A stretch of 64,000 nt of DNA from Ignavibacteriota bacterium. Lineage in GTDB: Bacteria > Bacteroidota > Ignavibacteria > UBA10030. Positions within the stretch are counted from its first letter, which is position 1; the number at the start of each line of letters is the position of its first letter. Below, piece by piece: positions 19,155 through 56,421 of the stretch. The position numbers were made by a program, and so were the translations under genes. The stretch covers positions 1,016-65,015 of the forward strand of contig JAKEEG010000091.1 in the NCBI GenBank assembly GCA_022616555.1, read 5' to 3'. The notes under the pieces are model-generated. The model was not told the DNA's origin, did no database searches, and saw nothing but the letters and a program-made list of their open reading frames with translations.

Positions 19155-19256
19155 TAATTGTTTTTGTCATTGCGAGGCGCCTTTTGCCGAAGCAATCTAA
19201 CCACTGAAGTAAAACGGGATTGCTTCGCTGAAAAAACGCTCGCAATGGCGATTTTT

Positions 19257-27587: not shown

Positions 27588-30500
27588 TTATGGCTGTATG
27601 GAAAGCCGGATATCTAAACCAAGATCATTGACAGTCGAGCCCGGAATGCGCGAGCCGCCTTCATCCGGTTTCAGCGCGGTGTACTTGTAAAAGAGCGAAG
27701 CAGTGACGCGTGCACTCAGAACGTACCGGATACGCGTTTCCATCGTCGTGCGGCTGGAACCCTCCAGCGGAGTTCCATCCTTTTTAAAGTCCTCTTTAAA
27801 ATTATACACTCTTCTGGTATTCCGTGAGTACGTGTAGGAGAAGGTAATATCCAAGTCATTCGAGAGCGACAGCCCAAAGAAAGGAAACTCAAATCCCTTC
27901 CGCCCGTACGTTGCCGAGATAGCGATATCGCTGGTATTTGCTTCAACGATGTTCAAGGAGGACGGTGAGAGATCAAGCGACGTCGACGTCCCGTAGCGAA
28001 CATTACTGCTTAAGTTTCCTTTCAAGACTTCGCCGAAGGAGATGTCAAACCCGAGCAGCGGGCTAAAGCCATACACCACTTGCTGACTCTCGGTAATTTC
28101 ATTCCCAGTGGTGACCGAAAGTTTCCAGCGACGACGGTACGTTGACGTATAGCTATGGGTAAAGCTTACGCGTTGAGCCAGCGACGAGAAGAGCGGCAAT
28201 TTTTCCAAGCCATCCCAGCGCAACGACCAATTCGGCCGGGGCAACAATTCGCCAAAAATGCTCTTGCCGATGGGAAGGGCTTCGAGCCCTTCTTCAAACG
28301 CCTGCGAAAGCTTTGCGTCCTCTGTCCTGGTGTCCGTGGAGTTTCTCTTCAGGTTTTCATAAAGCTTATTCATATCCTCGATGCTTGTTTTGAAAAACTT
28401 AAAAAACAGAGTCGGGGGCATCGTGAAAAATGAACGGTCTATGCTGCCGCCCACTACTCTGCTCAGAACTTCCGGGCGCCCCTCGGCATCCGTGCGAATC
28501 GTCTTGTTGACGTTATAATCCCAGTTGAGCGACCAATTCAATTCGAGCCTGGCGCCCTGCCATAACTGGCGCGAGGTTTTCATCGAGACACGGTTCCCCT
28601 GGCTAAAGATGTCATTCATGCTGCCGTTCGGTGCGCGCAGTCCGGGAATGGTCGTCGCAGTAAAGAAGGGGAACCTCCCACTGCTGTTCAGCAGAACCTT
28701 CCCGTGTGGGTCAGATGACAACCCAAGTTGATATAACAACGACGGTCCGTACTCCGGCAAGGATTCCTGAAAGAATGGTACTCGAGCAAACAGATTGTTA
28801 AAACCGGTCCTCCCTATCAGTCCACTGTTCTGCGAACGGTTATTTTGCGAAAACGAAATACTGAATTTATCAAAATCAAAAAATGGAATTTTGATAAACA
28901 GCCGGCTTAGCTGTTCCAGCCTCGAGCCAAGCGTTGCCCCTTTACCGGCACTCGTATCGTTCGGGCTGGGTGCGGGTTTGACATCAGGCCAAATCTTGCT
29001 CCCAAGCTGCTTAATATTAATATCGAAATTTGTGCTGAGGCTGCTATTCCATTGTCCTGATCTTCCCAGTTCGCCGGCCTGAATATTATTCTGCCAATTG
29101 TACCGTGAACTGTAACGGCTGTTGAGTGTGATAATTTTATCAAGTTCCCAAATAGGCGGCACCGTTGGTCGTGGGGTGATGTTAATCGTCTGCGCGTAAC
29201 CTTGAGTTACACCAAAGTCAATGAGACGTGTTCCGCCAAAGATATCTCCCAAAATGCTCGTAAACGGACGTTGTCGCCCGAGTGAATCCAATTCAAAATG
29301 GAGCAGGCTGCTGGTAATCGACAAATCATAATCAGTCGCGAGGTTAAGCAACCCGCCATCGGCTATCGGCCAATTAAAATTGAACGAGCGCGTGGCATTT
29401 AGGTTACGCACAGTGGGTTTCGGCAACGCCTGCAGCCGGGTATGTTCATAAGCTTGGCTGCGATTTAATACGGCGGAAGTGCCAATCGACTTCGGCGCAT
29501 AGTAAAGACGAACTTTCTTCCATGGGCTCAATAAGAAAAAATCACCTAACACCGAAAACGGCTCAACGTAATTATCGCCGTAATCCGCGGCGTACGCAAG
29601 TCGGGAATTCCATCCCCATTGACGGTAATACAATGTTTGCGGATTACGTCTGGTAGACGTATTGTACGTGAACCCAAACGTCAAGCTATTTATCGTTTTC
29701 GTTACCCACCACGATTCCGAAGGAAGAACAATTTTAACGTTCGGCAGGGCATAATTTTCCGTCACAACAAGCGTCTGGCTCCTGAGACGTATGTCGTTCG
29801 CTTCCTGATTTGCCGCACCGTTAGACCCGTTTTGCTGCTGAACAAGGTCCACCGCTTCGTCCACAACAATGTCCGTCCCGGGAAGATACTTTGGTCGTTG
29901 CATCACTTCCGTATGCGAGTAACTAAAAGCGAGCTTCGAACCTCGCCACGAAGCTGGAAGAAACTTTTCAAAACCGACATTTGCCGCAAGATTCCAATTG
30001 CGATCGGTATTGCGGGAACCAAATCTGTCTTCAAGGCCGTGGAAGAATGGGTCGCGTTCGGTCAAAGCGAACGAGACACTGGCAACATCGGCAAATTTGA
30101 TACTGGTATCAAACCGATACGCCCAACCCGGGGAATCATCCACGTCCGTAACGCGCATTTCGTTTACCCACAGTTCCCCGTTGAGGAACGCGGCTCCCTT
30201 GCCTGCGGGATTTTCCACACCGATGGTAATAAAGCGAATGGTTGTCAGCGTCGGAGAGCCTCGAACGCGATACACGGCACCGGGAGAACCGTTCGGCACC
30301 GGCACCGGCGGGCTAATGTTCACGATTGCGGCGCTATCCCGGCCTAATTTAATCGCCGTCAGCTCTTCAAATCGAATGGTGATGTCGTTGCCTACCCAAC
30401 CCGGGTGAACCGGGGCGCGGTACTCGTAGTAGTTCAATGTATCGGCGCCGAAACGCAAATAAATTTCAGCGTCGTAATTATCAAGATTTACATAGGCAAA

Positions 30501-33500
30501 TGTTTGACCCGGCCTATTTTCACCATGGATGAACATTTTCAGCGTACTATAGTTGAACACATCCATCGGGCGCGCAAAACGTTTGATCACCTCCCGTGTG
30601 TCGCCGTCGCCCAAGCCGTTGATCACGAGCGCGAGCGATTGTTCATTGAGCAGAATCTGCTCATCTGGCCTTGAACGGTCTCTCGCCCTCACAACGCCGG
30701 GCGGGGGCTCATAAAATCCGGGATTGTCCTCCACGCTGCGTTCCGTAACGCGGAATGTCGGGTCGTTTTTGATTCGTTCTTCCCAATTACTGCCGACCAA
30801 ATTGAATTCTGCAAGCCGGAGAAACACGCTGTCCTGCGCTCCTTCAATCCAGACACGAACAGCTTCGACAACAGTAAGGGTTGGCTCACCAATCTTCGTT
30901 GTAAATTCGTTCAGGGGAATACGGATTTGATGCCATTGGTTTGCGCCGCCGCCGGCGATGTATTTCCGGAAATTGGGGTTTGTCGTATCCATTGGAATAA
31001 CGTACTCGAAGTAGCTATTCGTGCGATCCAATATGCCATTATTGTTCAAATCCTCCGTGTCCGGAAATTGCCCAGCTTGACTCTTCGAATTTCCCTCTGT
31101 CCCATTGATTCCGATGTAATCTCTCGGCGTAGGGTCAATCGAATTTGTGAACGGCTGAACCCAGTCATCGCCGGAGGGGTCGGACGCGTACTCCCGGTAG
31201 CGCTGGATAAACGCCGCATATTTCGCTTGTTCCTGCGCGTTAGTTAGGGTATCCAACCCGATATCCTCTCCGGGATTCAAGATACCATTTCGACGGAGAG
31301 GATCTCCAAGACCGTCTTCCGTGTTAAGCTCTCTATTCGGGATGACGTCTTCGCTGATTTGCCCCAGATCGATGTGTAGCTTCACTGTCGGCTGGGCTTG
31401 GCCGATCTTCACCCAGAATTCGATATAGTTAATATTCTCATCAATGAGGTTCGTACCGGTCGTCCCTAATAACCTCATCATACCACCCCATGCTTGGGTT
31501 GGGTTCGCGCGAAACTTTGTATCGAGGTCCAACGAATAGTTGTACGCCCCACGCTGCCTCGGCTCGTAATAGAGGTCCAATACTCTCACCTGTTCACCGC
31601 CGCTCCTCACACTCTTCTCCGGACGCAACTCCGTTATTTCGACGTCGCCCGGGATGAGGTTAAACCATGTGAGCCGTGCCTTGTACTCCATCTTTGATGT
31701 ATCGGGCAGCAGTTGCGCAAGCACAAATGGGTCGTTTGTCGGGACTGTGGGGTCGTCGGGGTCGGGAACATACGTATCCAACTGCGACATGTAAAACGGC
31801 GGACTTGCATCAAACCACCTGCTATATTCAGTACCGAGGTAGACAGTTTTACGTGTACCCTCGAAATCATCGATAAACGCGATACCGCTGCCGCCATCCT
31901 GCGGGATCGTGCTCTTGCGCGTATTTGGGTCGGGAAGCATGTACGCCGCTTCACCTTTGAGAGAAAATGACGACGGCGCGTTCGTTTGAATACCGGGCAG
32001 CGCGTTCATGGCGCGCGTGAGAAAATCGAGATTGACGTTCGTTCCGCCATCAAAGCCGAGAATCGTATTACTAATCGGCTCCTCGCCGATCCGGACTTTA
32101 TCGTTCAGCGTTTGCTGATTCAGGTTCATCACAGTAAAACCCAGCCCTGTAGATTTTGAAAGCGCAAGATCTCCGCGCGCGCCCAAGAGCGATTTTGACG
32201 CCAACTGAAAGAGGTCGTTCGCCTCATAACTAATTCGCACGTTCCGCCCCGGCACTAACAAGGATTGATTGCGAATCACCAACTGGCCTGTGATATAATC
32301 GACCGTGTAATCTGCCCCGGGAGTAGCCTCAACCCCATCAACCAAAACCTTGACGCTGCCTTCTACAAGGTTGCCAAAACCTAGATTATATGTTGAAGCG
32401 ATGGAGGCAGTCGTTTGCCCTTTGATAAGGAACCGGTTCCTTCGTGTGTTGTACAGGGCAGCCGTGTAGGTAGTATCATAGATATCCCCAAAGGTAAACG
32501 AATCCGCCTGTGCAATTGTCTTACCTTCATCAAGATAAAATCTGCGGATTCCTTCACGGAATGGTTCTAATGTCGGAAAAATCAGCTCGCCACGCGTTTC
32601 ATTGATAGTATAGGTGGAATAGTCAAATTTACCGTCAGAAGGCGAACCCGGTTCTTCACCGAATCGATCCAATCCCAGCACCTCCAATAGATTGAACTCA
32701 TCTATTGTTTCCTCCGCCGGCCTACCGGACGGTTCATAATAGACATTAAGCTCAAAGCCTTCCTTCTTGATGCCTCTGCCGCCAAGAGGGTAGATGTTTT
32801 TTAACATCAACGGCCACGCGCGCTTAAAGGAAGGGTCTAACTTGCGAGGACGGACAAGTTTCATCACTAACTTGAGGGTTTTTGATGTATCTTTGGCTCC
32901 AAAGTTGCCGATATCGATTGTTCCTTGTAACCCAGGTCCTGGTAGTGTGTACGCTACCGCAATTGCCTGTTCGTGTTGAATCGAGCGATTAAGCGTAATA
33001 AAACCGGCACTTTCGTCGTATCGATAGTCCTCAGGATAGTTGAGCTTATAGAAAAGCCCAACCTCAACCTCGCCCTTCTTCTCTAAATCGCCAAAGTCAC
33101 CTTGCCGAGCGACTAAATCTGTTTGATATTTCTCAACAAGCTCCCGGTCAATAAATGCCACCACCTCGCGATCGGTGGGGTCTTGAATACCGGTACGCGA
33201 AACCCAAACTTCTATGTCACGAATCTGCTGTGAAAGATCTGGATCAGAGGGAATCTGTCCGAATATACGGTCAAACAACAGTATGTAGGCGGAATCCAAA
33301 AAGAAGTGTTGGTCCTTTACATAGTCGGTTGCTCGCCGCTCGAACGGCTGTGCTTGCGTGCCTCCTGAGATTTCGAACTCTTTGATCTGCCCCTTCTTTT
33401 GTGACGCCAGTGTCGTTAGGGTTAACGGGCCCAATTGAAACGCCGCTTTGACGCCAAAGAGAGCCTGGTTGCTGGAGATAAACGACGACTTTGTCGCTAA

Positions 33501-34532
33501 AGACACGTTACCTGCCTCAACGCTCTGCACGATATCGTCTTCATAGCCTTTGTAGCGGACTTTAACCTGATTTTCGTACTCGAACTCACGGCTTGTGTTC
33601 CAGTCCGCGTCAATGGTTAATTTGTCGCCGATTTCGCCCTTCACGTTTACCTGCAACTCCTGCGCGAAGTCCGGCTCATTGCGCTCTTGCGCGAGCGGGT
33701 TGAGTTGAAACTGGTCGGATTTGGTGTTGCGCAGCCCGGCGTGAATATCGACAGAACCGTTGATGTTCAACCGGATTCGGTTGGGACCAAAAATGCTGAA
33801 GAGCGGGTTCTTGGGGACTGGAATTTCTAACGTGGTGATTTTACCAAAGACATCGCTGAGCCCTTGCTTCTTTTCACCTTCAAACTCATAACTCTGCGCT
33901 AAAATTTCCCAGTTTTTTCGGACAGCCGAACGCAGCCTAAGCATGGTATACTCCTCAAAGGGTATCTCTTGGGGTATCTTCACATCTTCATTATTGACGG
34001 TCTGCCGAATGTAATACACCCATCGCAGCGAGTCCAGCATGTGTTGAACGCGGACGAGGCTTGGAGCATCCAGGTACATCGGTGAGGTTGCCGGAGTAAC
34101 AGGTTCTGCCAGCGGAATATCCTTGCGCACATGCTGAAACTGCGCGAGCCGTGCGGATGAATCGCGTGTAATCGCCCGAATAGAATCTAGCAGTGTTTTC
34201 GTGATCTGACGCGTTCCACTCGTGTTAACTCTGCCACTCTTGAGTTGCGCGGCGCGGGCACGCCGCGACGGCTGCCTCACTTGTCGCCTTCGTGGAAGCG
34301 TATCCTGTGCGGCAGAAAACTCGACAAACGAAAAATCCGCCGCAAGAAGCGAACCGGCAATAGGAACTACGCCGGCGCCTTGTACATGCGGAGAGCTACC
34401 CATAAAGAGCAGTGCCGCGACCGCAACCGTTCCGCATCCGCTTAGAATAGCGAACGGGCTGAGACGACGCTCGCCGGCTCTCCGCAAGGAGAACGATACC
34501 GTATGGATAAGTGAGCCGCTACCGGGGTTCAC
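27588..34532 (-). CDS. sprA: Cell-surface protein SprA (T9SS translocon)
   Basis: A 2314-aa secreted beta-rich protein. Its size, its FCB-group context (PorX adjacent, a T9SS-CTD cargo nearby) and its low-complexity N-terminus are typical of SprA/Sov. Confidence 0.88.
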   Translation of the reverse strand: MNPGSGSLIHTVSFSLRRAGERRLSPFAILSGCGTVAVAALLFMGSSPHVQGAGVVPIAGSLLAADFSFVEFSAAQDTLPRRRQVRQPSRRARAAQLKSGRVNTSGTRQITKTLLDSIRAITRDSSARLAQFQHVRKDIPLAEPVTPATSPMYLDAPSLVRVQHMLDSLRWVYYIRQTVNNEDVKIPQEIPFEEYTMLRLRSAVRKNWEILAQSYEFEGEKKQGLSDVFGKITTLEIPVPKNPLFSIFGPNRIRLNINGSVDIHAGLRNTKSDQFQLNPLAQERNEPDFAQELQVNVKGEIGDKLTIDADWNTSREFEYENQVKVRYKGYEDDIVQSVEAGNVSLATKSSFISSNQALFGVKAAFQLGPLTLTTLASQKKGQIKEFEISGGTQAQPFERRATDYVKDQHFFLDSAYILLFDRIFGQIPSDPDLSQQIRDIEVWVSRTGIQDPTDREVVAFIDRELVEKYQTDLVARQGDFGDLEKKGEVEVGLFYKLNYPEDYRYDESAGFITLNRSIQHEQAIAVAYTLPGPGLQGTIDIGNFGAKDTSKTLKLVMKLVRPRKLDPSFKRAWPLMLKNIYPLGGRGIKKEGFELNVYYEPSGRPAEETIDEFNLLEVLGLDRFGEEPGSPSDGKFDYSTYTINETRGELIFPTLEPFREGIRRFYLDEGKTIAQADSFTFGDIYDTTYTAALYNTRRNRFLIKGQTTASIASTYNLGFGNLVEGSVKVLVDGVEATPGADYTVDYITGQLVIRNQSLLVPGRNVRISYEANDLFQLASKSLLGARGDLALSKSTGLGFTVMNLNQQTLNDKVRIGEEPISNTILGFDGGTNVNLDFLTRAMNALPGIQTNAPSSFSLKGEAAYMLPDPNTRKSTIPQDGGSGIAFIDDFEGTRKTVYLGTEYSRWFDASPPFYMSQLDTYVPDPDDPTVPTNDPFVLAQLLPDTSKMEYKARLTWFNLIPGDVEITELRPEKSVRSGGEQVRVLDLYYEPRQRGAYNYSLDLDTKFRANPTQAWGGMMRLLGTTGTNLIDENINYIEFWVKIGQAQPTVKLHIDLGQISEDVIPNRELNTEDGLGDPLRRNGILNPGEDIGLDTLTNAQEQAKYAAFIQRYREYASDPSGDDWVQPFTNSIDPTPRDYIGINGTEGNSKSQAGQFPDTEDLNNNGILDRTNSYFEYVIPMDTTNPNFRKYIAGGGANQWHQIRIPLNEFTTKIGEPTLTVVEAVRVWIEGAQDSVFLRLAEFNLVGSNWEERIKNDPTFRVTERSVEDNPGFYEPPPGVVRARDRSRPDEQILLNEQSLALVINGLGDGDTREVIKRFARPMDVFNYSTLKMFIHGENRPGQTFAYVNLDNYDAEIYLRFGADTLNYYEYRAPVHPGWVGNDITIRFEELTAIKLGRDSAAIVNISPPVPVPNGSPGAVYRVRGSPTLTTIRFITIGVENPAGKGAAFLNGELWVNEMRVTDVDDSPGWAYRFDTSIKFADVASVSFALTERDPFFHGLEDRFGSRNTDRNWNLAANVGFEKFLPASWRGSKLAFSYSHTEVMQRPKYLPGTDIVVDEAVDLVQQQNGSNGAANQEANDIRLRSQTLVVTENYALPNVKIVLPSESWWVTKTINSLTFGFTYNTSTRRNPQTLYYRQWGWNSRLAYAADYGDNYVEPFSVLGDFFLLSPWKKVRLYYAPKSIGTSAVLNRSQAYEHTRLQALPKPTVRNLNATRSFNFNWPIADGGLLNLATDYDLSITSSLLHFELDSLGRQRPFTSILGDIFGGTRLIDFGVTQGYAQTINITPRPTVPPIWELDKIITLNSRYSSRYNWQNNIQAGELGRSGQWNSSLSTNFDINIKQLGSKIWPDVKPAPSPNDTSAGKGATLGSRLEQLSRLFIKIPFFDFDKFSISFSQNNRSQNSGLIGRTGFNNLFARVPFFQESLPEYGPSLLYQLGLSSDPHGKVLLNSSGRFPFFTATTIPGLRAPNGSMNDIFSQGNRVSMKTSRQLWQGARLELNWSLNWDYNVNKTIRTDAEGRPEVLSRVVGGSIDRSFFTMPPTLFFKFFKTSIEDMNKLYENLKRNSTDTRTEDAKLSQAFEEGLEALPIGKSIFGELLPRPNWSLRWDGLEKLPLFSSLAQRVSFTHSYTSTYRRRWKLSVTTGNEITESQQVVYGFSPLLGFDISFGEVLKGNLSSNVRYGTSTSLDLSPSSLNIVEANTSDIAISATYGRKGFEFPFFGLSLSNDLDITFSYTYSRNTRRVYNFKEDFKKDGTPLEGSSRTTMETRIRYVLSARVTASLFYKYTALKPDEGGSRIPGSTVNDLGLDIRLSIQP

Positions 34533-39676: not shown

Positions 39677-40054
39677 TTCCTTCCTCGTAGGATTTTAAAG
39701 CGGATGATGGATACAATACGACATTTTTGTCATATTGTCAAATTAATAAATAGCATATTTGTCGAGAGCGAATAGAAAAGTGAACATAAAATATGAATTT
39801 GTTTACACATCGTCAAGTACACACCGTTACCCTTGCGCTTTTGAGCGCCTCAGAAAGACGTCTGGTCGTGGGCGATTTTGATGTGCGATATGTTTTTCTA
39901 TCTGGTTACTTCTATTGCTTGCCAATACCGTTCAACAGCAGCCCCGTAGGGGCAGGCGGGATGCTAGAAGCGCATTTCACTCAGCTTTCCTTATGATATC
40001 CTAATCGAAGGCGTCGCACCGAGGCAAAGAAGAAGTTGACGACAAATAGATTCA

Positions 40055-40275
40055 CTCGGCACGGCCAGCCAGGAGCATGCCCGCGGGACAGACCCGGGGA
40101 ATCCAGAGCCCGAAAACCGCGTTGAGCGGTTTTCGTGTCGTAGGCCCTTACAAAGGATTCCGTGAGGGACGCCTTGCGTTAGGAATAACCGGATGGTTTC
40201 TCGGGCATCGTGGCCACTCTGCCCAAGAACCGGAAATTCAATTTACCCAATATACAGTACCGAACCCCCGCTCGT
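40055..40275. other. GC-rich, hairpin-dense non-coding segment (candidate structured RNA or gene remnant)
   Basis: It has local hairpins (AAAACCGCgttgaGCGGTTTT and GGGCAtcgtggccactcTGCCC), GC content well above its AT-rich flanks, and no credible ORF. Confidence 0.3.
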
Positions 40276-40295
40276 CAATACAAGATTTGTAATTT

Positions 40296-40339
40296 GTTTG
40301 TACAATTTTGGTAAAAAGATTGTACAAATTTTGTAAAAC
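40296..40339. repeat. Tandem ~22-bp direct repeat containing the palindromic core TTGTACAA
   Basis: TTGTACAATTTTGGTAAAAAGA followed by TTGTACAAATTTTGTAAAACCG. The TTTTGTAA motif recurs again at 40376–40394. Confidence 0.7.
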
Positions 40340-40342
40340 CGC

Positions 40343-40369
40343 GTAGGGGCGTATAATATACGCCCCTAC
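40343..40369. repeat. REP-like palindrome GTAGGGGCGTATAATATACGCCCCTAC
   Basis: It has the same GTAGGGG…CCCCTAC arms as the RAYT-associated REPs and lies in the non-coding tail of the tcmP islet. Confidence 0.75.
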
Positions 40370-40487
40370 AAAAACATTTTGTAATTTTTACAATAATGTA
40401 ATTTCAATGAATACCAATATATACCGGGAAATGGTATTTGTCAACTCGAATTTTAGAAAAACTTTACTCGAAATTTAGAATACGTTG

Positions 40488-47129: not shown

Positions 47130-47621
47130 TTAGTTGACGCCGAAGTCCATTCCGCACTTCGGACACGTCGTTGCATCGGGTGGAACGAGCGCTTTGCAGT
47201 TCTCGCAGTAGAAGAACTGATCCTGAGGGTCGGCGGCGCTATCTTCTTGTGCTTCAACGTCTTCGAGCGTTGTTGTTCGTTCCACTCTGGTGTCGTCGTA
47301 TTGCTTTTGAGTGGTAAACCACGCCCTCGCCGCCATGGCGAACGAGAATAGCGAGATGATCCAGCTCTGGATGGAACCTGTCTGAAGCGCCTGATAGAGG
47401 AAGAACCCGGCTACCGCCAGACCAACGACGGTGCTAAAGACCCTCGAAGACGTAACGGGCTGGGAAGGCGAGTCTGATCCGCTTCGGAAGCCGCTCGTGA
47501 GCCGCTCCCACCAGGATTCAGACTTCACATAGCCACAGTGGGGACAAAAGCTCGCCGCTTTGAGGAATGTTTTCCCGCAGCGCGGGCATGTCTGCTCGGC
47601 ATAAAGGTTTTCGCTACTCAC
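47130..47621 (-). CDS. Double zinc-ribbon membrane protein (hypothetical)
   Basis: CPRCG…CPHCG at the N-terminus and CENC…CPKCG at the C-terminus, with one TM helix between them. Confidence 0.5.
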   Translation of the reverse strand: MSSENLYAEQTCPRCGKTFLKAASFCPHCGYVKSESWWERLTSGFRSGSDSPSQPVTSSRVFSTVVGLAVAGFFLYQALQTGSIQSWIISLFSFAMAARAWFTTQKQYDDTRVERTTTLEDVEAQEDSAADPQDQFFYCENCKALVPPDATTCPKCGMDFGVN

Positions 47622-49810
47622 CCAACTTCTCCTAATGACTGAATTTCTTTATAACGCAACTCGAAGTGCCGCCTGATTGCCGCGTTCTCCGTGCGGCGCA
47701 GGTGCGGATCGCTTACCACCAGATCGAATGCTTCCTTCCGAGCAAGCATCATGAGGTCCCTGTCTTCAACGATATTAGCAATCCTGAATTCCGGCATGCC
47801 GCTTTGTTTCGTGCCGAAGAAATCTCCCGGACCGCGAAGCTGCAAATCTACTTCGGCGATTTTGAAACCATCGGTTGTCTCGACCATTGTCTCCAGCCGG
47901 ACTTTCGCGCTTTTCTTTTCTCTTTGGACGTCCATCTCAGCCAATCCTTTGCTGTGGTCAAACCAGCCGTAATCGGCAATAAGAATGCAATACGATTGGT
48001 CGGCTCCTCTCCCAACGCGCCCGCGTAACTGGTGAAGCTGGGAAAGCCCAAACCGCTCGGCATTCTCGATAATCATTATCGTCGCGTTCGGCACGTCGAT
48101 GCCTACTTCAATGACGGTAGTTGCAACGAGAATGTCAATCGCGCCGGATTTAAACTCCCGCATCACCGCGTCCTTTGCCTCAGTTTTCATGCGTCCGTGA
48201 ATAAGCGCGAGCTTGAGGTCGGGAAAAATTTTGCTCAGACGGTCGTATCCGGCAGTAGCCGCTTTGAGGTCGACTTTCTCAGATTCCTCAATAATAGGGA
48301 ATACAATATACGCCTGCCGCCCCTGTGCAATCTCTTTTTGAACAAAATCGAACACTTTAGCCTTTTGGTCTTCCAACCGCACAGCAGTTTTTATCGGTTT
48401 GCGGTGCGCGGGCATCTCGTCTATGACAGAAACATCGAGGTCGCCGTAGAGTGACATGGCAAGCGTGCGTGGAATTGGCGTGGCGGTCATAACCAAAACA
48501 TCGGGCGGGAGTGCGTTAGCTCCCTTGGCACGAAGAGTTGCGCGCTGCATCACGCCGAAGCGATGTTGTTCATCGATAACGACGAGCCCCAGTTTGCCAA
48601 ACTCCACATGTTCCTGAATGAGCGCGTGAGTGCCAACGACAATCTGCGCGCTGCCTCTATGAATATCATCCAGCACATCCTGGCGCAATTTTCGTTTCTG
48701 CCCGCCGATGAGCAGGCGAACATTGACGGGGAGATTTTTCAGAAACTCCGCGAGCGTACGGAAGTGCTGCTCGGCGAGGACTTCCGTAGGAGCCATGAAA
48801 GCGGCTTGGTAGCCGTTTTCAACTGCAATCAGCATAGCAAGTAGAGCGACAATCGTCTTGCCGCTTCCTACATCGCCCTGTAGAAGTCGATTCATCACTT
48901 TAGGCATTCGCATATCGTCAGAGATTTCTTTCACGACTCGGCGCTGAGCTGTCGTAAGCTCAAACGGTAGCGAATCCACCAATTGCCGGGCGAGCTTGCT
49001 CTCAACTGCAAACGAAATGCCGTTTGTGTCTTCCTTAATAGAGCGTTTGCGAAAAGCGAGCATGAGCTGGAGGAAAAACAACTCGTCGAATTTCAGTCTC
49101 CGCTTTGCCGTCTCTAGCGCTGCTGTGTTTTCCGGAAAATGGATATTGCGTATGGCGAACGGCAGGTCAACTAACTGCCCGCTCTGGCGTATGTCGTTGG
49201 AGAGCGTTTCTTTGATTTCGTGAATATGCGAGTTTAGCGCGTTGCGCAGGATGCGTCGAAATCCCCGGCTGTCCAGCCCGACTTTCGTCAAGTCCGCCGT
49301 TGAAGGATACTTGGGAATAATAGCGCCGGTATTAAACATTTTGCCCCAGTCGGGCTCGTCTTCTTCCATCGCGCCCTTCAGCCGGTCGAATTCAGGATGA
49401 ATGAACTGCACACGCCCGAGTTTATCAAAGTCCGGGTACGACGACAGCGAGAGCAGCTCGCCTTGCTCGAACGCGTCTTTATACCATTGCACGCCCTCAA
49501 ACCAGACGCATTGCAGATAGCCGCTGCTGTCTTTCACCGTTAGGACAAAAAACGAGCGCCTCGATTTTTTGGCGTATTTCACCTCGAAGCGAAACACCTC
49601 GCCAACCACAGTCACCTGCTCGCCTTTGCCGGCATAGCGTTTCAGGTCTTTGATGGGAATAATACGGCTGCGGTCGAGATAATCGCGCGGGAAATAATAC
49701 AACACATCGTGCGCGGAGTGGATACCGATGGATTCCAGCGCCTTCGCGCGCTTCGGTCCAACGCCTTTCAGGTACTGGAGGGGTGAGGTATGTTGGGATG
49801 GGGTCTGCAA
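47618..49810 (-). CDS. recG: ATP-dependent DNA helicase RecG
   Basis: 730 aa with a wedge domain, helicase motifs (GDVGSGKT, DEQH) and a C-terminal domain. Confidence 0.95.
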   Translation of the reverse strand: MQTPSQHTSPLQYLKGVGPKRAKALESIGIHSAHDVLYYFPRDYLDRSRIIPIKDLKRYAGKGEQVTVVGEVFRFEVKYAKKSRRSFFVLTVKDSSGYLQCVWFEGVQWYKDAFEQGELLSLSSYPDFDKLGRVQFIHPEFDRLKGAMEEDEPDWGKMFNTGAIIPKYPSTADLTKVGLDSRGFRRILRNALNSHIHEIKETLSNDIRQSGQLVDLPFAIRNIHFPENTAALETAKRRLKFDELFFLQLMLAFRKRSIKEDTNGISFAVESKLARQLVDSLPFELTTAQRRVVKEISDDMRMPKVMNRLLQGDVGSGKTIVALLAMLIAVENGYQAAFMAPTEVLAEQHFRTLAEFLKNLPVNVRLLIGGQKRKLRQDVLDDIHRGSAQIVVGTHALIQEHVEFGKLGLVVIDEQHRFGVMQRATLRAKGANALPPDVLVMTATPIPRTLAMSLYGDLDVSVIDEMPAHRKPIKTAVRLEDQKAKVFDFVQKEIAQGRQAYIVFPIIEESEKVDLKAATAGYDRLSKIFPDLKLALIHGRMKTEAKDAVMREFKSGAIDILVATTVIEVGIDVPNATIMIIENAERFGLSQLHQLRGRVGRGADQSYCILIADYGWFDHSKGLAEMDVQREKKSAKVRLETMVETTDGFKIAEVDLQLRGPGDFFGTKQSGMPEFRIANIVEDRDLMMLARKEAFDLVVSDPHLRRTENAAIRRHFELRYKEIQSLGEVG

Positions 49811-49820
49811 ATATTCATGC

Positions 49821-49848
49821 GTAGGGGTTGAATATATTCAACCCCTAC
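49821..49848. repeat. REP-like perfect 28-bp palindrome GTAGGGGTTGAATATATTCAACCCCTAC
   Basis: Self-complementary; it encodes the last codons and stop of the RAYT and lies 11 bp upstream of the recG start. Confidence 0.85.
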
Positions 49849-50392
49849 TCCGATTTTTCACATTTATTGGATTTTCTTCGTCGTAGAACCAACGCAAAAC
49901 GTTATCGGCAATGTACTGCCTAATCCTAATCAACTCTTTTTCGTTGCGAATGATATGCTCGTAATAATCTCTCTGCCATTTAAACTCTAATGATTTATTT
50001 CGATGGCTGATTCGTGTCACTGCTGCTTTGTAAGAACGAATAATCGATCCAAGAGATTTTGGAATCACATGCTGATATCTGTTTTGTCGTTGTAGGGGTT
50101 CAATATATTGAACCCCTACCCTGTCTGTTATACACAGAATGCCGTGTATATGATTTGGCATCACAACATGCTCATCCAACTGGACATTCGGAAAATGCTC
50201 GGGAATTTTGACCCAGCATTCGTCGGCAATTTTTCCAATTGAAGACAGATTCATTTTCTCTTCAACAATATTCCCAAATACGCATTCCCGTTCGTACGTG
50301 CAAATCGTTATAAAGTACGCTCCTTCTTGAGAATAATCGTACTCTTTCAACCGTATTGATCGGCGGTGAAATTTCTCAAGGGTATCGCTCAT
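49838..50392 (-). CDS. REP-associated tyrosine transposase (RAYT; IS200-like Y1 HUH transposase)
   Basis: HUH motif (MPNHIHGIL) and a catalytic Tyr region (WQRDYYEHII). Its stop is encoded by a 28-bp REP palindrome, and its start overlaps the stop of the M28 peptidase gene. Confidence 0.8.
   Translation of the reverse strand: MSDTLEKFHRRSIRLKEYDYSQEGAYFITICTYERECVFGNIVEEKMNLSSIGKIADECWVKIPEHFPNVQLDEHVVMPNHIHGILCITDRVGVQYIEPLQRQNRYQHVIPKSLGSIIRSYKAAVTRISHRNKSLEFKWQRDYYEHIIRNEKELIRIRQYIADNVLRWFYDEENPINVKNRSRG
50091..50118. repeat. REP-like perfect 28-bp palindrome GTAGGGGTTCAATATATTGAACCCCTAC (in-frame inside the RAYT ORF)
   Basis: Self-complementary. It differs from the 49821 copy by a symmetric G/C swap and encodes GVQYIEPLQ within the RAYT. 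Confidence 0.85.
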
Positions 50393-52509
50393 TACTTTGC
50401 CGTCAACTTCACCGTCCCAACCTTTGCCATCGTGCGCAAATAGGCGGTCAAATCTGCGAGCGGCAGCGGCTCGAACTCGCCGGAGAGGAAATCGCGAATC
50501 TCCAATATGGATTTATTCTGCCCGAGAAGAATATTCAATTCTGCGCGCATGTGCTGGGGAATGATGTTCAGCGTCGCTCGCTCTACATCCGTAAGGTTCG
50601 CACGGGCGATTGCCGCCTGTTGTCCGCCAAATCCGCCACCACCACCCTGCGTCTGCACGCGCTCGACTATCACCTTACCGGCTTCCTTTTCTTCCGAACT
50701 CATTGCAATTTTCGCAACGGAGGTCTTACGTATCTCAGCTTGCATGCGGTAAAATGCATCGACCTCGTTTTGCAATGTCGTCGCGCGTTTGTCAATCAGC
50801 GATTCGAAGCTTGCAAGCTTTTTCTGTGCGTCTGACGGCTTTGCAAATAAGACGCTTGCCGAACGGATGACACCCTTCTCGACTTCCGCCTGATGGCGGA
50901 CGGCGTTTTGCGCTTCTTTATATGAGTGTGACAACTGCGAGCCGTCGGCAATATCCGTCATGTAGCTGAATCCCTTGCGCTGCGCGGCACCCATGCGTTC
51001 GGAGCCGCGTGTGAATGACTCACCCGCAACACGCATTGCCATCGCATCATCTGCTGAGGCAATCGCGCTGAATGCACCGATTCCCACAACCGCCACACGC
51101 TTGAACTGCGTCGGATCCAGCTTATCGGGCGTATCCTGCGAGGAGTGATACCACATATCTGGCCACGTCACGAACATCACCGCGGGGATGCCGTGCTGCA
51201 TGTACGTCACATGGTCGCTCGAGCCGTAATGTTTGTCGATTTTGATATAGAACGCATCCTGACTACCGTTCGGGGCATGGACGGGCAAAGACGGGCGATA
51301 ACCGTTGGCGCGGTATCGCACGCGCTCGCGGTTTGTTTCGGCAACAAACTCCATAAAGCTCGCGCAGATGTCGTTCAAGTACGAGGGGAACGTATCCGGC
51401 GTGCGCTGGAGTATCCAGAAGCTGCTGCTCGTCGAAAGCCGCAAGCCCTCCATATCGAAATTCAAATCGGCGATGGCTTTGGCTTCGATATCCTTATGCG
51501 CGTTGAGCCATGCGTTGGTGCCGCTGATTTCCGGAACCCAGAGAAAATGAATCGCCCGCTTCGGCGGGGGGAGCTTGCCTTCTTTCACCAATCGAATATA
51601 TGCACGGCCCATTTCGAGCGTGACAGCGCAACCGGAGTTGTCGTCGTTTGCTCCTTGTTTGATGTAGCCTTCATACAAATGCGCGGAAACCATCACCACC
51701 TGATCAGAACTGCCGTCTCCTGGAATTGTCGCGTGGACGGTTTCCAACTCGCCGGGAAACGTCTCAGCCTTAATAATAGAGCGGAGAACGACTTTTTGCC
51801 CTCTGCCAAGATAGCCCACAATCTCGCGAGCAACACGCGGAGCAATCACCCAGCCAAATCCCGCTTCCTTTCCTTCCGGGGCGTTCGCTGAGATGCCCGA
51901 AGACAAAATTTCATCCGGATAGCTATCAGCTCGCAGCGATGTGTAACTTACGACTCCAGCAGCACTGCGGTCGAATACTCCCAGCCGCTGCAATGTATTT
52001 GGACTTGTTGAGCCGAGCACGAGCTTGCCCTTGACGTCCTTTCGCGCATAGTCCTCTTCACGAGCGCCGATGCCGACATCGACCACCTCGGCTGTCACGT
52101 CGCCGGACAAGCTATTTCCAGCAAGTGAAATGGCAACGTCATAGATGTCGTACAGTTTCTTCACCACCGGTTCGACCATCCACAACTCGCCCTGGCTTGG
52201 CTGCCACAAGCGGTTTTGCGCGGGGAATGATTCTATCTCCACGTTACTGAAGCCGTACTCCTTTGCATATTTCGCCATGACTTCGCTCTCGCGAAAATGT
52301 CCTTCGTACTCCGATTTCGGTCGCACGCGTGGATACGGAACAAGCTCCAGCACGTGGTGCATTGCCCTTTCGCCGGAAGCTTCGTTGATGATCGCACGCA
52401 TTTGCTCGTGAGAGAGCAGCGTACGGTCTTCGGCTTCCTGGGAGAAAGTCTTTGTGATAGCAATAATCATAAGACAAAACGTTAACGACAAACGGAAAGC
52501 GCGTCTCAT
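50392..52509 (-). CDS. M28-family peptidase with a PA domain (transferrin-receptor-like aminopeptidase)
   Basis: A signal peptide (MRRAFRLSLTFCLMIIAI), a PA domain and M28 metal-binding motifs (HLYEGY…DDNSG…E). Confidence 0.8.
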   Translation of the reverse strand: MRRAFRLSLTFCLMIIAITKTFSQEAEDRTLLSHEQMRAIINEASGERAMHHVLELVPYPRVRPKSEYEGHFRESEVMAKYAKEYGFSNVEIESFPAQNRLWQPSQGELWMVEPVVKKLYDIYDVAISLAGNSLSGDVTAEVVDVGIGAREEDYARKDVKGKLVLGSTSPNTLQRLGVFDRSAAGVVSYTSLRADSYPDEILSSGISANAPEGKEAGFGWVIAPRVAREIVGYLGRGQKVVLRSIIKAETFPGELETVHATIPGDGSSDQVVMVSAHLYEGYIKQGANDDNSGCAVTLEMGRAYIRLVKEGKLPPPKRAIHFLWVPEISGTNAWLNAHKDIEAKAIADLNFDMEGLRLSTSSSFWILQRTPDTFPSYLNDICASFMEFVAETNRERVRYRANGYRPSLPVHAPNGSQDAFYIKIDKHYGSSDHVTYMQHGIPAVMFVTWPDMWYHSSQDTPDKLDPTQFKRVAVVGIGAFSAIASADDAMAMRVAGESFTRGSERMGAAQRKGFSYMTDIADGSQLSHSYKEAQNAVRHQAEVEKGVIRSASVLFAKPSDAQKKLASFESLIDKRATTLQNEVDAFYRMQAEIRKTSVAKIAMSSEEKEAGKVIVERVQTQGGGGGFGGQQAAIARANLTDVERATLNIIPQHMRAELNILLGQNKSILEIRDFLSGEFEPLPLADLTAYLRTMAKVGTVKLTAK

Positions 52510-52548
52510 ACCAGTATCCTTTCTATATGATAAGCTTGCGGCCACCCA

Positions 52549-56371: not shown

Positions 56372-56421
56372 AGATGTCCGACTTTTTGCCCAGCTCGCGC
56401 AACGCTAAAAGTCGGACATCT
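56372..56421 (-). terminator. Hairpin terminator downstream of pyrG
   Basis: A 15-bp perfect inverted repeat (AGATGTCCGACTTTT…AAAAGTCGGACATCT) lying 5 bp after the pyrG stop. Confidence 0.5.

What the first reader, a model, noticed from the sequence alone, without database searches (positions are those of the whole stretch)
49821..50394. Single-copy REP-associated tyrosine transposase, start-stop coupled to a peptidase gene, with one REP palindrome in-frame inside its own ORF
The 184-aa HUH/Y1 protein (HIHGIL…WQRDYYEH) is a RAYT. Its start codon overlaps the stop of the M28 peptidase gene as TAATG, which reads like operon coupling (the tsaB/tsaE/porX genes overlap the same way). Its last three codons and its stop are encoded by the perfect 28-bp palindrome GTAGGGGTTGAATATATTCAACCCCTAC. 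A second perfect palindrome with a symmetric G-to-C swap (…GTTCAATATATTGAAC…) lies inside the ORF, in frame, encoding GVQYIEPLQ in the linker between the HUH motif and the catalytic Tyr. A REP encoded as protein sequence is unusual and may mark recent REP insertion into the transposase gene itself.
Basis: seen in the sequence. Interest (0 to 1): 0.55.

Follow-up and report, generated by a model that had tools for sequence, protein, structure and literature searches.

The report
RAYT gene carrying its own REP
This is an ordinary member of an already described class of REP-associated tyrosine transposases (TnpAREP subclass 2.4 / RAYT group 4), whose genes typically carry one of their target DNA hairpins in frame inside the coding sequence; it is not a recent accident in this genome.

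Summary
ORF 49838-50392 (-) encodes a 184-aa HUH/Tyr protein. Its ATG overlaps the M28 peptidase stop (TAATG). Two perfect 28-bp GTAG...CTAC palindromes lie at 49821-49848 (over the stop codon) and 50092-50119 (in frame, VGVQYIEPL).

The "recent insertion" reading does not hold. All 34 aligned homologues have the same segment. In 79 metagenomic homologues, 76 have a hairpin in the HUH-to-WQ linker, against 2-3 in controls.

What is conserved is the DNA palindrome, not the peptide:
- Codons are fixed (GGG 29/29, CCC 29/29, GTA 26/29).
- Seven of 12 stem pairs covary by Watson-Crick changes, with almost no G-T.
- The same REP is read in frame 0 or frame 1 in different homologues, never in frame 2, which would give TAG.

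Quentin et al. 2018 (PMC6006769) already describe this: in-frame "double-foot" REPs between HuH and Y in subclass 2.4.

WQ..EH..R is the GTAG-binding motif; the nucleophile is Y160.

The palindrome is not shown to be repetitive: two copies plus one related hairpin in 64 kb, and 1-4 exact copies per genome elsewhere. A close relative has M28-REP-recG with no RAYT.

Verdict: new member of a known kind, low-moderate interest.

The parts
49838..50392 (-). RAYT / TnpAREP gene, 184 aa, subclass 2.4-type (NHIH, WQ, YIADNV)
   Evidence: ORF list. NCBIfam NF047646 scores 48 bits, below its cutoff of 80. Pfam Y1_Tnp scores 17 bits, below its cutoff of 23. Profile hit to PDB 4ER8 TnpAREP, E = 1.8e-6. More than 7,990 homologues, many named RayT by their sources. 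The exact protein is P0001, from an Ignavibacteriae MAG.
50092..50119 (.). In-gene double-foot REP, a perfect 28-bp palindrome read in frame 0 as VGVQYIEPL(Q)
   Evidence: It falls in an AlphaFold loop of pLDDT below 50 (residues 94-109), between the HUH strand and helix 114-131.
49821..49848 (.). 3' double-foot REP, the G/C-swapped variant. It is read in frame 1 as (S)RG-stop, so it supplies the RAYT stop codon. It ends 10 nt before the recG start.
   Evidence: A REP sits at the equivalent place, 8 nt before the recG ATG, in the RAYT-less relative L135.
50390..50394 (-). TAATG: the M28 stop codon overlapping the RAYT start codon by one base
50144..50152 (-). HUH motif codons (H81-I82-H83)
   Evidence: H81 and H83 are invariant in alignment A1 and align to the HMH of 4ER8.
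49946..49978 (-). W139-Q140...E145-H146...R149, the predicted GTAG-guide-binding motif (not the catalytic Tyr)
   Evidence: Alignment to W94/Q95/E100/H101/R104 of 4ER8. The roles of these residues are as stated in PMC6006769.
49913..49915 (-). Y160, the predicted catalytic tyrosine (YIADNV, the family's YIxNNP motif)
   Evidence: Invariant in alignment A1. Aligns to the Tyr of DYIYINP in 4ER8. Y motif as in Table 1 of PMC6006769.
50392..52545 (-). Upstream neighbour: M28 family peptidase gene
   Evidence: Pfam PF04389, E = 5.5e-18
47618..49810 (-). Downstream neighbour: recG helicase gene
   Evidence: Pfam RecG_wedge, DEAD, Helicase_C and RecG_dom3_C
40343..40369 (.). Third GTAG double-foot hairpin, GTAGGGGCGTATAATATACGCCCCTAC, intergenic, with a different inner stem

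Best explanation
The gene encodes a TnpAREP/RAYT of subclass 2.4 (Bertels group 4). This is a single-domain HUH/Y1 nuclease. By homology with E. coli TnpAREP, it should bind a hairpin on single-stranded DNA, read the 5' GTAG 'foot' with its WQ..EH..R motif, and cut and rejoin the strand through Y160.

Its cognate substrates are perfect 'double-foot' palindromes of the form GTAG-GGG-stem-loop-stem-CCC-CTAC. One sits at the 3' end of the gene and supplies the stop codon. One sits inside the gene.

The in-gene copy is a family trait, not a local accident. It lies in the DNA that codes for a disordered surface loop between the HUH strand and the next helix, where almost any peptide is tolerated.

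The DNA palindrome is what is maintained. I infer that it is kept perfect, and kept similar to the genome's other REPs, by continuing turnover. This could be replacement or conversion by REPs of the resident pool, and/or hairpin-templated correction. Selection then acts only to keep the frame open, so frames 0 and 1 occur and the TAG-creating frame 2 does not.

Expression is most likely by read-through from the M28 gene.

Shown here: anatomy, family membership by motifs, DNA-level conservation, the position in a low-confidence loop, and turnover between relatives. Inferred: catalytic activity, the turnover mechanism, and co-transcription.
For: Family and motifs:
- NHIH, WQ and Y160-x3-N164 match the subclass 2.4 signature in Table 1 of PMC6006769.
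- The GTAG-binding residues and the catalytic Tyr align to 4ER8.
- The published description of subclass 2.4 matches: double-foot REPs with three G-C pairs at the stem base, and REPs inserted in frame between HuH and Y.

The in-gene hairpin is a family trait:
- All 34 aligned homologues have [V/R]G...P at the site; G93 is invariant.
- In 79 metagenomic genes the best hairpin score in the linker has median 13. It is at least 10 in 65 genes and at least 8 in 76. An equal-length N-terminal control has median 5 and reaches 8 in 2 genes. Shuffled linkers reach 8 in 3 genes.

The constraint is on DNA, not on the peptide:
- Codons are fixed: GTA 26/29, GGG 29/29, CCC 29/29, CTA 23/25. Their background frequencies are 16, 31, 33 and 7%.
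- Seven of 12 stem pairs show double changes (80 cells). 99.2% of cells are paired and there is only one G-U cell.
- The identical REP GTAGGGGCACGGCATGCCGTGCCCCTAC is read as VGARHAVPL in L020, L022 and L027, and as RGTACRAPT in L030.
- Frames are 0 (31 genes) and 1 (19 genes), never 2.

Position in the protein: residues 94-109 have pLDDT below 50 in a model whose mean pLDDT is 81.

Concerted evolution and turnover:
- REPs outside the gene are identical to the in-gene REP in L030, L033, L057, L061 and L063.
- Genes with 60-75% identical cores share the same REP sequence in only 12 of 463 pairs.
- At the orthologous M28-recG locus, L134 carries a RAYT (59% identical) with a different REP in a different frame. 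L135 has only a REP.

Co-transcription: no terminator-like site lies on the coding strand.
Against: - No subclass 2.4 enzyme has been tested biochemically in the papers I could search (one search covers groups 2 and 3 only).
- E. coli TnpAREP needs a bulge in its REP, and these REPs are perfect palindromes. The binding mode may therefore differ.
- The Y motif here is YIADNV rather than YIxNNP.
- Curated models do not reach their cutoffs (NF047646 48 of 80 bits; PF01797 17 of 23 bits).
- The near-universal presence and perfection of the in-gene hairpin, compared with the rarity of flanking REPs, could equally mean direct selection for a function of the in-gene copy. The data do not separate selection from turnover.
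- The alignment used for the covariation counts was selected for palindromy, so its percent-paired value is circular. The pair-type diversity is not.
Confidence: 0.8

Rival explanations
1. The in-gene REP is a selected cis-acting DNA element and not a tolerated passenger. It could be the enzyme's permanently linked 'master' substrate, which keeps RAYT and REP together through recombination and horizontal transfer and seeds new REPs. Or it could be an autoregulatory site where the protein binds its own gene as single-stranded DNA.
For: - The in-gene hairpin is far more constant than flanking REPs: 76/79 genes have one, against 12/64 with a 5'-flank REP and 8/71 with a 3'-flank REP.
- It stays a perfect Watson-Crick palindrome across proteins only 40-60% identical, with fixed synonymous sites.
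- REPs in the same locus are often identical to it.
- The same 28-mer occurs in many phyla, both inside RAYT genes and outside them.
Against: - All of these patterns are also produced by continual REP replacement at a permissive site plus selection for an open frame.
- The nucleotide position and frame of the REP differ between homologues, and even at the orthologous locus. That fits repeated arrival better than one conserved element.
- Three of 79 genes lack any hairpin, and about 14 have only weak ones.
Confidence: 0.3
2. One reading: a REP recently transposed into the transposase gene of this genome.
For: The internal and 3' copies differ only by one compensated base pair. REPs do insert into genes (PMC3733652).
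Against: - The segment is not an insertion relative to any of the 34 closest homologues, which come from many phyla and carry the same or a covarying palindrome at the same place.
- 28 bp is not a multiple of three.
- This is a published family-wide feature (PMC6006769).
Confidence: 0.03
3. The conserved unit is the peptide VGVQYIEPL, a functional protein motif, and the palindrome is incidental.
For: V92, G93 and P99 are at least 90% conserved in alignment A1.
Against: - Synonymous sites are fixed.
- The middle residues change in the pairs dictated by base pairing: Q..E, E..Q, K..S, R..V, T..A.
- The same DNA is read in another frame, as RGT...APT, in other homologues.
- The segment is predicted to be disordered.
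Confidence: 0.02
4. The hairpin acts in the mRNA, as a translation brake or an RNase target that down-regulates the transposase, as proposed for IS200 and for REPs in REPtrons.
For: The stem is stable. Di Nocera et al. suggest REP hairpins may down-regulate RAYT mRNAs (PMC3733652).
Against: Among 360 pair cells there are 80 double changes but only one G-U cell and no one-sided changes. Selection on an RNA helix normally tolerates G-U, so this pattern points to a DNA-level palindrome. The two effects are not mutually exclusive.
Confidence: 0.1

Closest known systems
TnpAREP subclass 2.4 (Quentin, Siguier, Chandler & Fichant 2018, PMC6006769), equal to RAYT group 4 of Bertels et al. 2017 (PMC5581495)
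   Same: - NH[IFV]H and WQ motifs, and the Y-x3-N motif.
- About 190 aa, with no C-terminal tail domain.
- A variable insertion between beta3 and alphaC.
- Double-foot GTAG...CTAC REPs with three G-C pairs at the stem base.
- A REP inserted in frame between HuH and Y.
- Scattered across many phyla, with low REP copy number.
   Different: - The Y motif is YIADNV instead of YIxNNP.
- The host is an Ignavibacteriae MAG, close to but not among the phyla the paper emphasises (Cyanobacteria, Bacteroidetes).
- The 3' REP supplies the stop codon.
- The paper treats the in-gene REPs as variable insertions. Here the hairpin is found in 76/79 sampled genes and is more constant than the flanking REPs.
E. 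coli TnpAREP (subclass 2.2 / group 2; PDB 4ER8; PMC3479197)
   Same: - HUH and catalytic Tyr.
- W/Q/E/H/R residues that read the GTAG guide.
- A REP hairpin with a 5' GTAG foot.
- Single copy.
   Different: - E. coli REPs are imperfect, with an essential bulge, and carry a single foot.
- They are extragenic and number in the hundreds.
- The E. coli protein has a C-terminal tail that contacts GTAG.
- It has no in-gene REP, and its HUH-to-Tyr spacing is about 23 residues shorter.
IS200/IS605 TnpA (Pfam PF01797)
   Same: The HUH/Y1 fold, and recognition of sub-terminal ssDNA hairpins with a guide tetranucleotide.
   Different: - Pfam score is below threshold (17 of 23 bits).
- The Y motif is of the RAYT type (Y..NNP) and not Y...Q.
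- No tnpB gene is present in the window around it.
- One copy in the window.
- No left-end hairpin upstream of the gene, because the start codon abuts the M28 stop.
In-frame palindromic repeats in other protein-coding genes: GTAG/CGTC REPs in recB and similar genes (PMC3733652), and Rickettsia palindromic elements (from my own knowledge)
   Same: A short palindromic repeat is tolerated in frame within a protein, presumably in a surface loop.
   Different: Here the host gene is the enzyme thought to mobilise the repeat, and the insertion is family-wide at one structural site rather than sporadic.

Membership tests
TnpAREP subclass 2.4 / RAYT group 4 | HuH motif NH[IFV]H | tested here: met
   N80-H81-I82-H83. 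N80, H81 and H83 are invariant in alignment A1. Motif from Table 1 of PMC6006769.
TnpAREP subclass 2.4 / RAYT group 4 | WQ motif with E/H/R (GTAG recognition) | tested here: met
   W139, Q140, E145, H146 and R149 align to W94, Q95, E100, H101 and R104 of 4ER8 (PMC6006769).
TnpAREP subclass 2.4 / RAYT group 4 | Y motif YIxNNP | tested here: inconclusive
   The protein has YIADNV. Y160 and N164 are invariant in alignment A1, but N163 is replaced by D and P165 by V. The homologue consensus is YIxNNP.
TnpAREP subclass 2.4 / RAYT group 4 | Variable insertion between beta3 (HUH strand) and alphaC, giving a longer HuH-Y distance | tested here: met
   H83 to Y160 is 77 residues, against 54 in 4ER8. 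The loop at 94-109 has pLDDT below 50 and lies between strand 81-88 and helix 114-131.
TnpAREP subclass 2.4 / RAYT group 4 | Cognate REPs are long or 'double foot' (5' GT[AG]G ... C[TC]AC 3') with three G-C pairs at the stem base | tested here: met
   All three hairpins in the window have the form GTAG-GGG...CCC-CTAC.
TnpAREP subclass 2.4 / RAYT group 4 | REP inserted in frame inside tnpAREP, between HuH and Y | tested here: met
   The palindrome at 50092-50119 is read in frame 0 as residues 92-101.
TnpAREP subclass 2.4 / RAYT group 4 | 8-residue insertion at the end of alphaB | not tested
   No structural superposition on 4ER8 was made.
TnpAREP subclass 2.4 / RAYT group 4 | Clustering with reference subclass 2.4 sequences (MCL or tree) | not testable with these tools
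   The reference sequence set of PMC6006769 was not available. Assignment rests on the motifs and REP features.
NCBIfam NF047646 REP_Tyr_transpos (equivalog) | Score at or above the curated cutoff of 80 bits | tested here: not met
   48.4 bits, E = 8.6e-13. This makes it a relative but not an equivalog of the E. coli-type enzyme.
IS200/IS605 TnpA (Pfam PF01797 Y1_Tnp) | Score at or above the gathering cutoff of 23 bits | tested here: not met
   17.1 bits, E = 0.0063.
IS200/IS605 TnpA (Pfam PF01797 Y1_Tnp) | Multiple near-identical copies, bounded by left-end and right-end hairpins | tested here: not met
   One copy in 64 kb. There is no hairpin upstream, because the start codon overlaps the M28 stop.
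REP (repetitive extragenic palindrome) in the classical sense | Palindrome with a conserved 5' GTAG | tested here: met
REP (repetitive extragenic palindrome) in the classical sense | High copy number in the genome | tested here: inconclusive
   The window has two copies of this sequence plus one related hairpin in 64 kb. The MAG is absent from genome contigs. The exact 28-mer occurs at only 48 places in 185,579 species genomes, 1-4 per genome. Hairpins of the class occur at about 1-2 per 10 kb near such sites.
REP (repetitive extragenic palindrome) in the classical sense | Extragenic location | tested here: not met
   One copy is fully intragenic and one overlaps the last codons and the stop. 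Only the hairpin at 40343-40369 is intergenic.

The most novel reading that the evidence does not exclude
The in-gene hairpin may be the one indispensable REP of this RAYT class. It would be a DNA-level cis element embedded in the coding sequence, and selection would keep it there. Its role could be to serve as the enzyme's linked master substrate, so that gene and target always travel together. Or it could be a site where the enzyme senses or limits its own gene on single-stranded DNA. This would explain three things: why it is nearly universal while flanking REPs are not; why it is kept as a perfect Watson-Crick palindrome; and why identical 28-mers appear across distant phyla.
Probability: 0.3. 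Interest if true: 0.6.

Novelty: new member of a known kind. Interest (0 to 1): 0.3.

Why it matters
As it stands, the finding is a correct annotation lesson. A conserved-looking peptide (VGVQYIEPL and its relatives VGAKNFSPL, RGTACRAPT and others) in thousands of 'hypothetical' or 'transposase' proteins is the translation of a DNA hairpin. It should not be read as a protein motif or as a fresh insertion.

It also gives a clean natural example of overlapping constraints: a DNA palindrome and an open reading frame share the same 28 bases.

If the in-gene REP proved to be functional, it would make the poorly understood RAYT group 4 systems experimentally approachable. The gene carries its own substrate, so one cloned gene provides both enzyme and target.

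Tried and rejected
- **Rfam.** A scan of the whole window at gathering thresholds gave no hits, so the palindromes and the non-coding stretch near 40.3 kb match no curated RNA family.
- **Second RAYT copy.** tblastn gave only chance-level hits. The collinear weak hits at 30.9-31.5 kb lie inside a 2,314-aa ORF.
- **Genome-wide REP count for this MAG.** Not possible.
- **Conserved M28-RAYT operon.** Rejected. M28 orthologues at 72-75% identity have unrelated downstream genes.
- **3' REP as an intrinsic terminator for the RAYT.** Rejected. The terminator-like matches are on the opposite strand only and are no more frequent than in shuffles.
- **REP turnover rate from close gene pairs.** The metagenome sample has almost no pairs above 75% core identity, so no rate could be estimated.
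- **Caveat on the covariation alignment.** It was built from sequences pre-selected for pairing. I therefore rely on the unselected linker-versus-control hairpin scores and on codon usage for significance.
Full report
**1. Observation**

The - strand ORF 49838..50392 encodes 184 aa with HIHGIL and WQRDYYEH. Its ATG overlaps the TAA of the 717-aa ORF 50392..52545, giving TAATG. That ORF is a Peptidase_M28 protein. Downstream, the recG gene (47618..49810) starts 10 nt after the 3' palindrome.

Two perfect 28-bp palindromes are present. GTAGGGGTTGAATATATTCAACCCCTAC lies at 49821-49848. GTAGGGGTTCAATATATTGAACCCCTAC lies at 50092-50119. The number expected by chance is 0.00. Each folds as ssDNA at -11.5 kcal/mol.

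The 3' copy is read as ..GT AGG GGT TGA, that is S-R-G-stop. The internal copy is read as GTA GGG GTT CAA TAT ATT GAA CCC CTA C, that is VGVQYIEPL.

A third hairpin of the same class, GTAGGGGCGTATAATATACGCCCCTAC, is intergenic at 40343-40369. tblastn finds no second RAYT gene in the window.

**2. What the protein is**

- Pfam Y1_Tnp scores 17 bits against a cutoff of 23. NCBIfam REP_Tyr_transpos scores 48 bits against a cutoff of 80. Both are below threshold.
- The protein has more than 7,990 homologues. Many are named 'REP element-mobilizing transposase RayT' by their sources. The exact sequence comes from an Ignavibacteriae MAG.
- A profile of 34 homologues hits only E. coli TnpAREP (PDB 4ER8) among solved structures, with E = 1.8e-6.
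- In that alignment, WQRDYYEHIIR matches W94, Q95, E100, H101 and R104. According to Quentin et al. 2018 these contact the GTAG guide.
- The Tyr of RQYIADN (Y160) matches the Tyr of DYIYINP, the Y motif of Table 1 in that paper.

**3. The in-gene palindrome is a family trait**

In the alignment of 34 homologues (50-64% identical, from many phyla), every sequence has the segment. G93 is invariant, and V92 and P99 are at least 90% conserved.

The variable middle residues change in pairs: VGVQYIEPL, VGVEYIQPL, VGVQNFEPL, VGVQHVEPL, VGAKNFSPL, VGAQHAAPL, RGTIYRAPT. This is what a palindrome with compensated stem changes would encode.

I fetched 80 homologous loci from metagenomes:
- 52 of 80 carry a GT[AG]G-footed palindrome inside the gene, with a stem of at least 10 and at most one mismatch.
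- Without any requirement for a foot, the best hairpin score in the HUH-to-WQ linker has median 13. It is at least 10 in 65 of 79 genes and at least 8 in 76 of 79.
- An equal-length N-terminal control segment has median 5 and reaches 8 in 2 of 79. Shuffled linkers reach 8 in 3 of 79.

**4. The constraint is on DNA**

- In 29 genes picked by the peptide pattern alone, the codons are GTA 26/29, GGG 29/29, CCC 29/29 and CTA 23/25. In the rest of the same genes these codons make up 16, 31, 33 and 7%.
- On 30 distinct 28-mers, 7 of 12 stem pairs show changes on both sides (80 cells). There is one G-U cell and there are no one-sided changes. This set was pre-selected for pairing, so the 99% paired figure is circular. 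The diversity of Watson-Crick pair types and the absence of G-U are not. They point to a DNA palindrome and not to an RNA helix.
- The same REP, GTAGGGGCACGGCATGCCGTGCCCCTAC, is translated as VGARHAVPL in L020, L022 and L027, and as RGTACRAPT in L030.
- Frame 0 occurs in 31 genes and frame 1 in 19. Frame 2, which would read TAG, never occurs.
- The peptide is therefore a by-product. The AlphaFold model (mean pLDDT 81) puts residues 94-109 in a loop with pLDDT below 50, between the HUH strand and helix 114-131.

**5. This is already known**

Quentin, Siguier, Chandler and Fichant (2018, PMC6006769) define TnpAREP subclass 2.4, which equals Bertels' RAYT group 4. Its features are:
- motifs NH[IFV]H, WQ and YIxNNP;
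- median length 194 aa;
- a variable insertion between beta3 and alphaC;
- REPs that are long or 'double foot' (5' GT[AG]G...C[TC]AC 3'), with three G-C pairs at the stem base;
- as 'a remarkable and unique feature', REPs inserted within the tnpAREP genes, in frame, between HuH and Y.

They suggest the insertions sit in a peripheral loop with little effect on activity. The present gene fits every feature I could test, apart from a divergent Y motif (YIADNV).

Later literature in the searchable library adds nothing on in-gene REPs. Biochemistry exists only for groups 2 and 3.

**6. Beyond the paper**

*Flanking REPs are much less constant than the in-gene one.* Only 12 of 64 loci have a REP within 300 nt on the 5' side and 8 of 71 on the 3' side.

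*REPs outside the gene often match the in-gene REP.* They are identical in L030, L033, L057, L061 and L063. By contrast, genes with 60-75% identical cores share the same REP in only 12 of 463 pairs. This is concerted evolution within genomes and rapid turnover between them.

*Many homologues carry tandem in-frame copies of the left half-REP before the full palindrome.* Examples are VGVQYIVGVQYIEPL in L106 and about a dozen VGxTN units in L052.

*The exact 28-mer is rare.* It occurs at only 48 places in 185,579 species genomes, 1-4 per genome, in Cyanobacteria, Nitrospirota, Leptospiraceae, WOR-3, Ignavibacteriota, Saprospiraceae, Patescibacteria and others. Seven of these places were scored as inside RAYT genes (an eighth, L116, also looks so), and about 40 are outside them. 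Each genome with several copies has only the G variant or only the C variant. The window is unusual in having both. Nearby hairpins in those genomes often have other inner stems. The class is low-copy and diverse, not 'repetitive' in the E. coli sense.

**7. The locus**

- L135, whose M28 is 85% identical, reads M28 stop, 14 nt, GTAGGGGCGTGATGAACGCCCCTAC, 8 nt, recG ATG. It has no RAYT.
- L134, whose M28 is 83% identical, has a RAYT 24 nt after the M28 stop. It is 59% identical over 80 aa. Its in-gene REP is GTAGGGGCACGTTGCAACGTGCCCCTAC, read in frame 1 as RRGTLQRAPT. That gene may be damaged.
- M28 orthologues at 72-75% identity have unrelated neighbours.

The REP just upstream of recG is therefore positionally conserved in this small clade. 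The RAYT is present, different or absent between M28 and that REP.

The TAATG overlap is thus a packing feature of this genome and not a conserved functional link. Nine of 50 homologues do overlap an upstream same-strand ORF, and 34 of 50 have one within 400 nt. No terminator-like site lies on the coding strand. Read-through expression is plausible, as Di Nocera et al. proposed for REPtrons.

**8. Mechanism**

By homology (inferred), the protein binds GTAG-footed hairpins on ssDNA and cuts and rejoins through Y160.

The in-gene REP sits where the protein tolerates any loop. I think it is most likely kept perfect, and kept like the genome's other REPs, by ongoing replacement, conversion or hairpin-templated correction. 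Selection would then act only for an open frame. My confidence is 0.8 for the overall identification and lower for the turnover mechanism.

The main rival is direct selection for the in-gene hairpin, as a linked master substrate or an autoregulatory site (0.3). It is not excluded, and it is the most novel reading. A peptide function, a recent insertion and a purely RNA-level role are each contradicted by specific results.

**9. Verdict**

This is a new member of a known kind, of low-to-moderate interest.

Noticed in passing
window 40343-40369 (within the non-coding stretch of about 39680-40487): A third perfect GTAG double-foot hairpin, GTAGGGGCGTATAATATACGCCCCTAC, with a different inner stem. 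It lies in an unusually long (about 800 nt) stretch that has no long ORF and no Rfam match.
   Followed up: partly
L135 2271-2330 (ENA ERZ27271325 k119_1069615): An 'empty site' relative of the locus. The M28 stop is followed by a single REP (GTAGGGGCGTGATGAACGCCCCTAC, with the palindrome extended by ATTTA/TAAAT) and then recG, with no RAYT gene.
   Followed up: partly
L134 2551-2849 (ENA ERZ27254795 k141_983306): At the same locus, a RAYT with a different in-gene REP in a different reading frame. It has apparent in-frame stops ('DVRY**') before the HUH motif, so it may be a pseudogene or an assembly error. The contig ends inside the REP.
   Followed up: partly
L052 5001-5666; L106 1101-1146; L035; L017; L083 3106-3165: Tandem in-frame duplications of the left half of the REP precede the full in-gene palindrome. 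Examples are about a dozen VG(A/T/M)TN units in L052 and VGVQYIVGVQYIEPL in L106. They suggest slippage or repeated half-site processing at the hairpin.
   Followed up: no
L081-L128 (genome contigs): The identical 28-bp palindrome occurs in genomes of very distant phyla (Cyanobacteria, Leptospiraceae, Nitrospirota, WOR-3, Patescibacteria, anammox Planctomycetota and others). There are 1-4 copies per genome, and each genome holds only the G variant or only the C variant. This window holds one of each.
   Followed up: partly
L094 2355-2750; L112; L120: Several GTAG-GGG...CCC-CTAC hairpins with unrelated inner stems sit within a few hundred to a few thousand bases of each other in one genome. This points to a diverse, low-copy hairpin population, not one REP family per genome.
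   Followed up: no
window 27588-34532 (-): A very long ORF of 2,314 aa. Weak collinear tblastn hits of the RAYT inside it are chance matches. The ORF itself was not characterised.
   Followed up: no
window 19168-19247 and 56372-56421: Other inverted repeats: 30-nt arms at 73% complementarity, and 18-nt arms at 94% complementarity. They are unrelated to the GTAG class.
   Followed up: no
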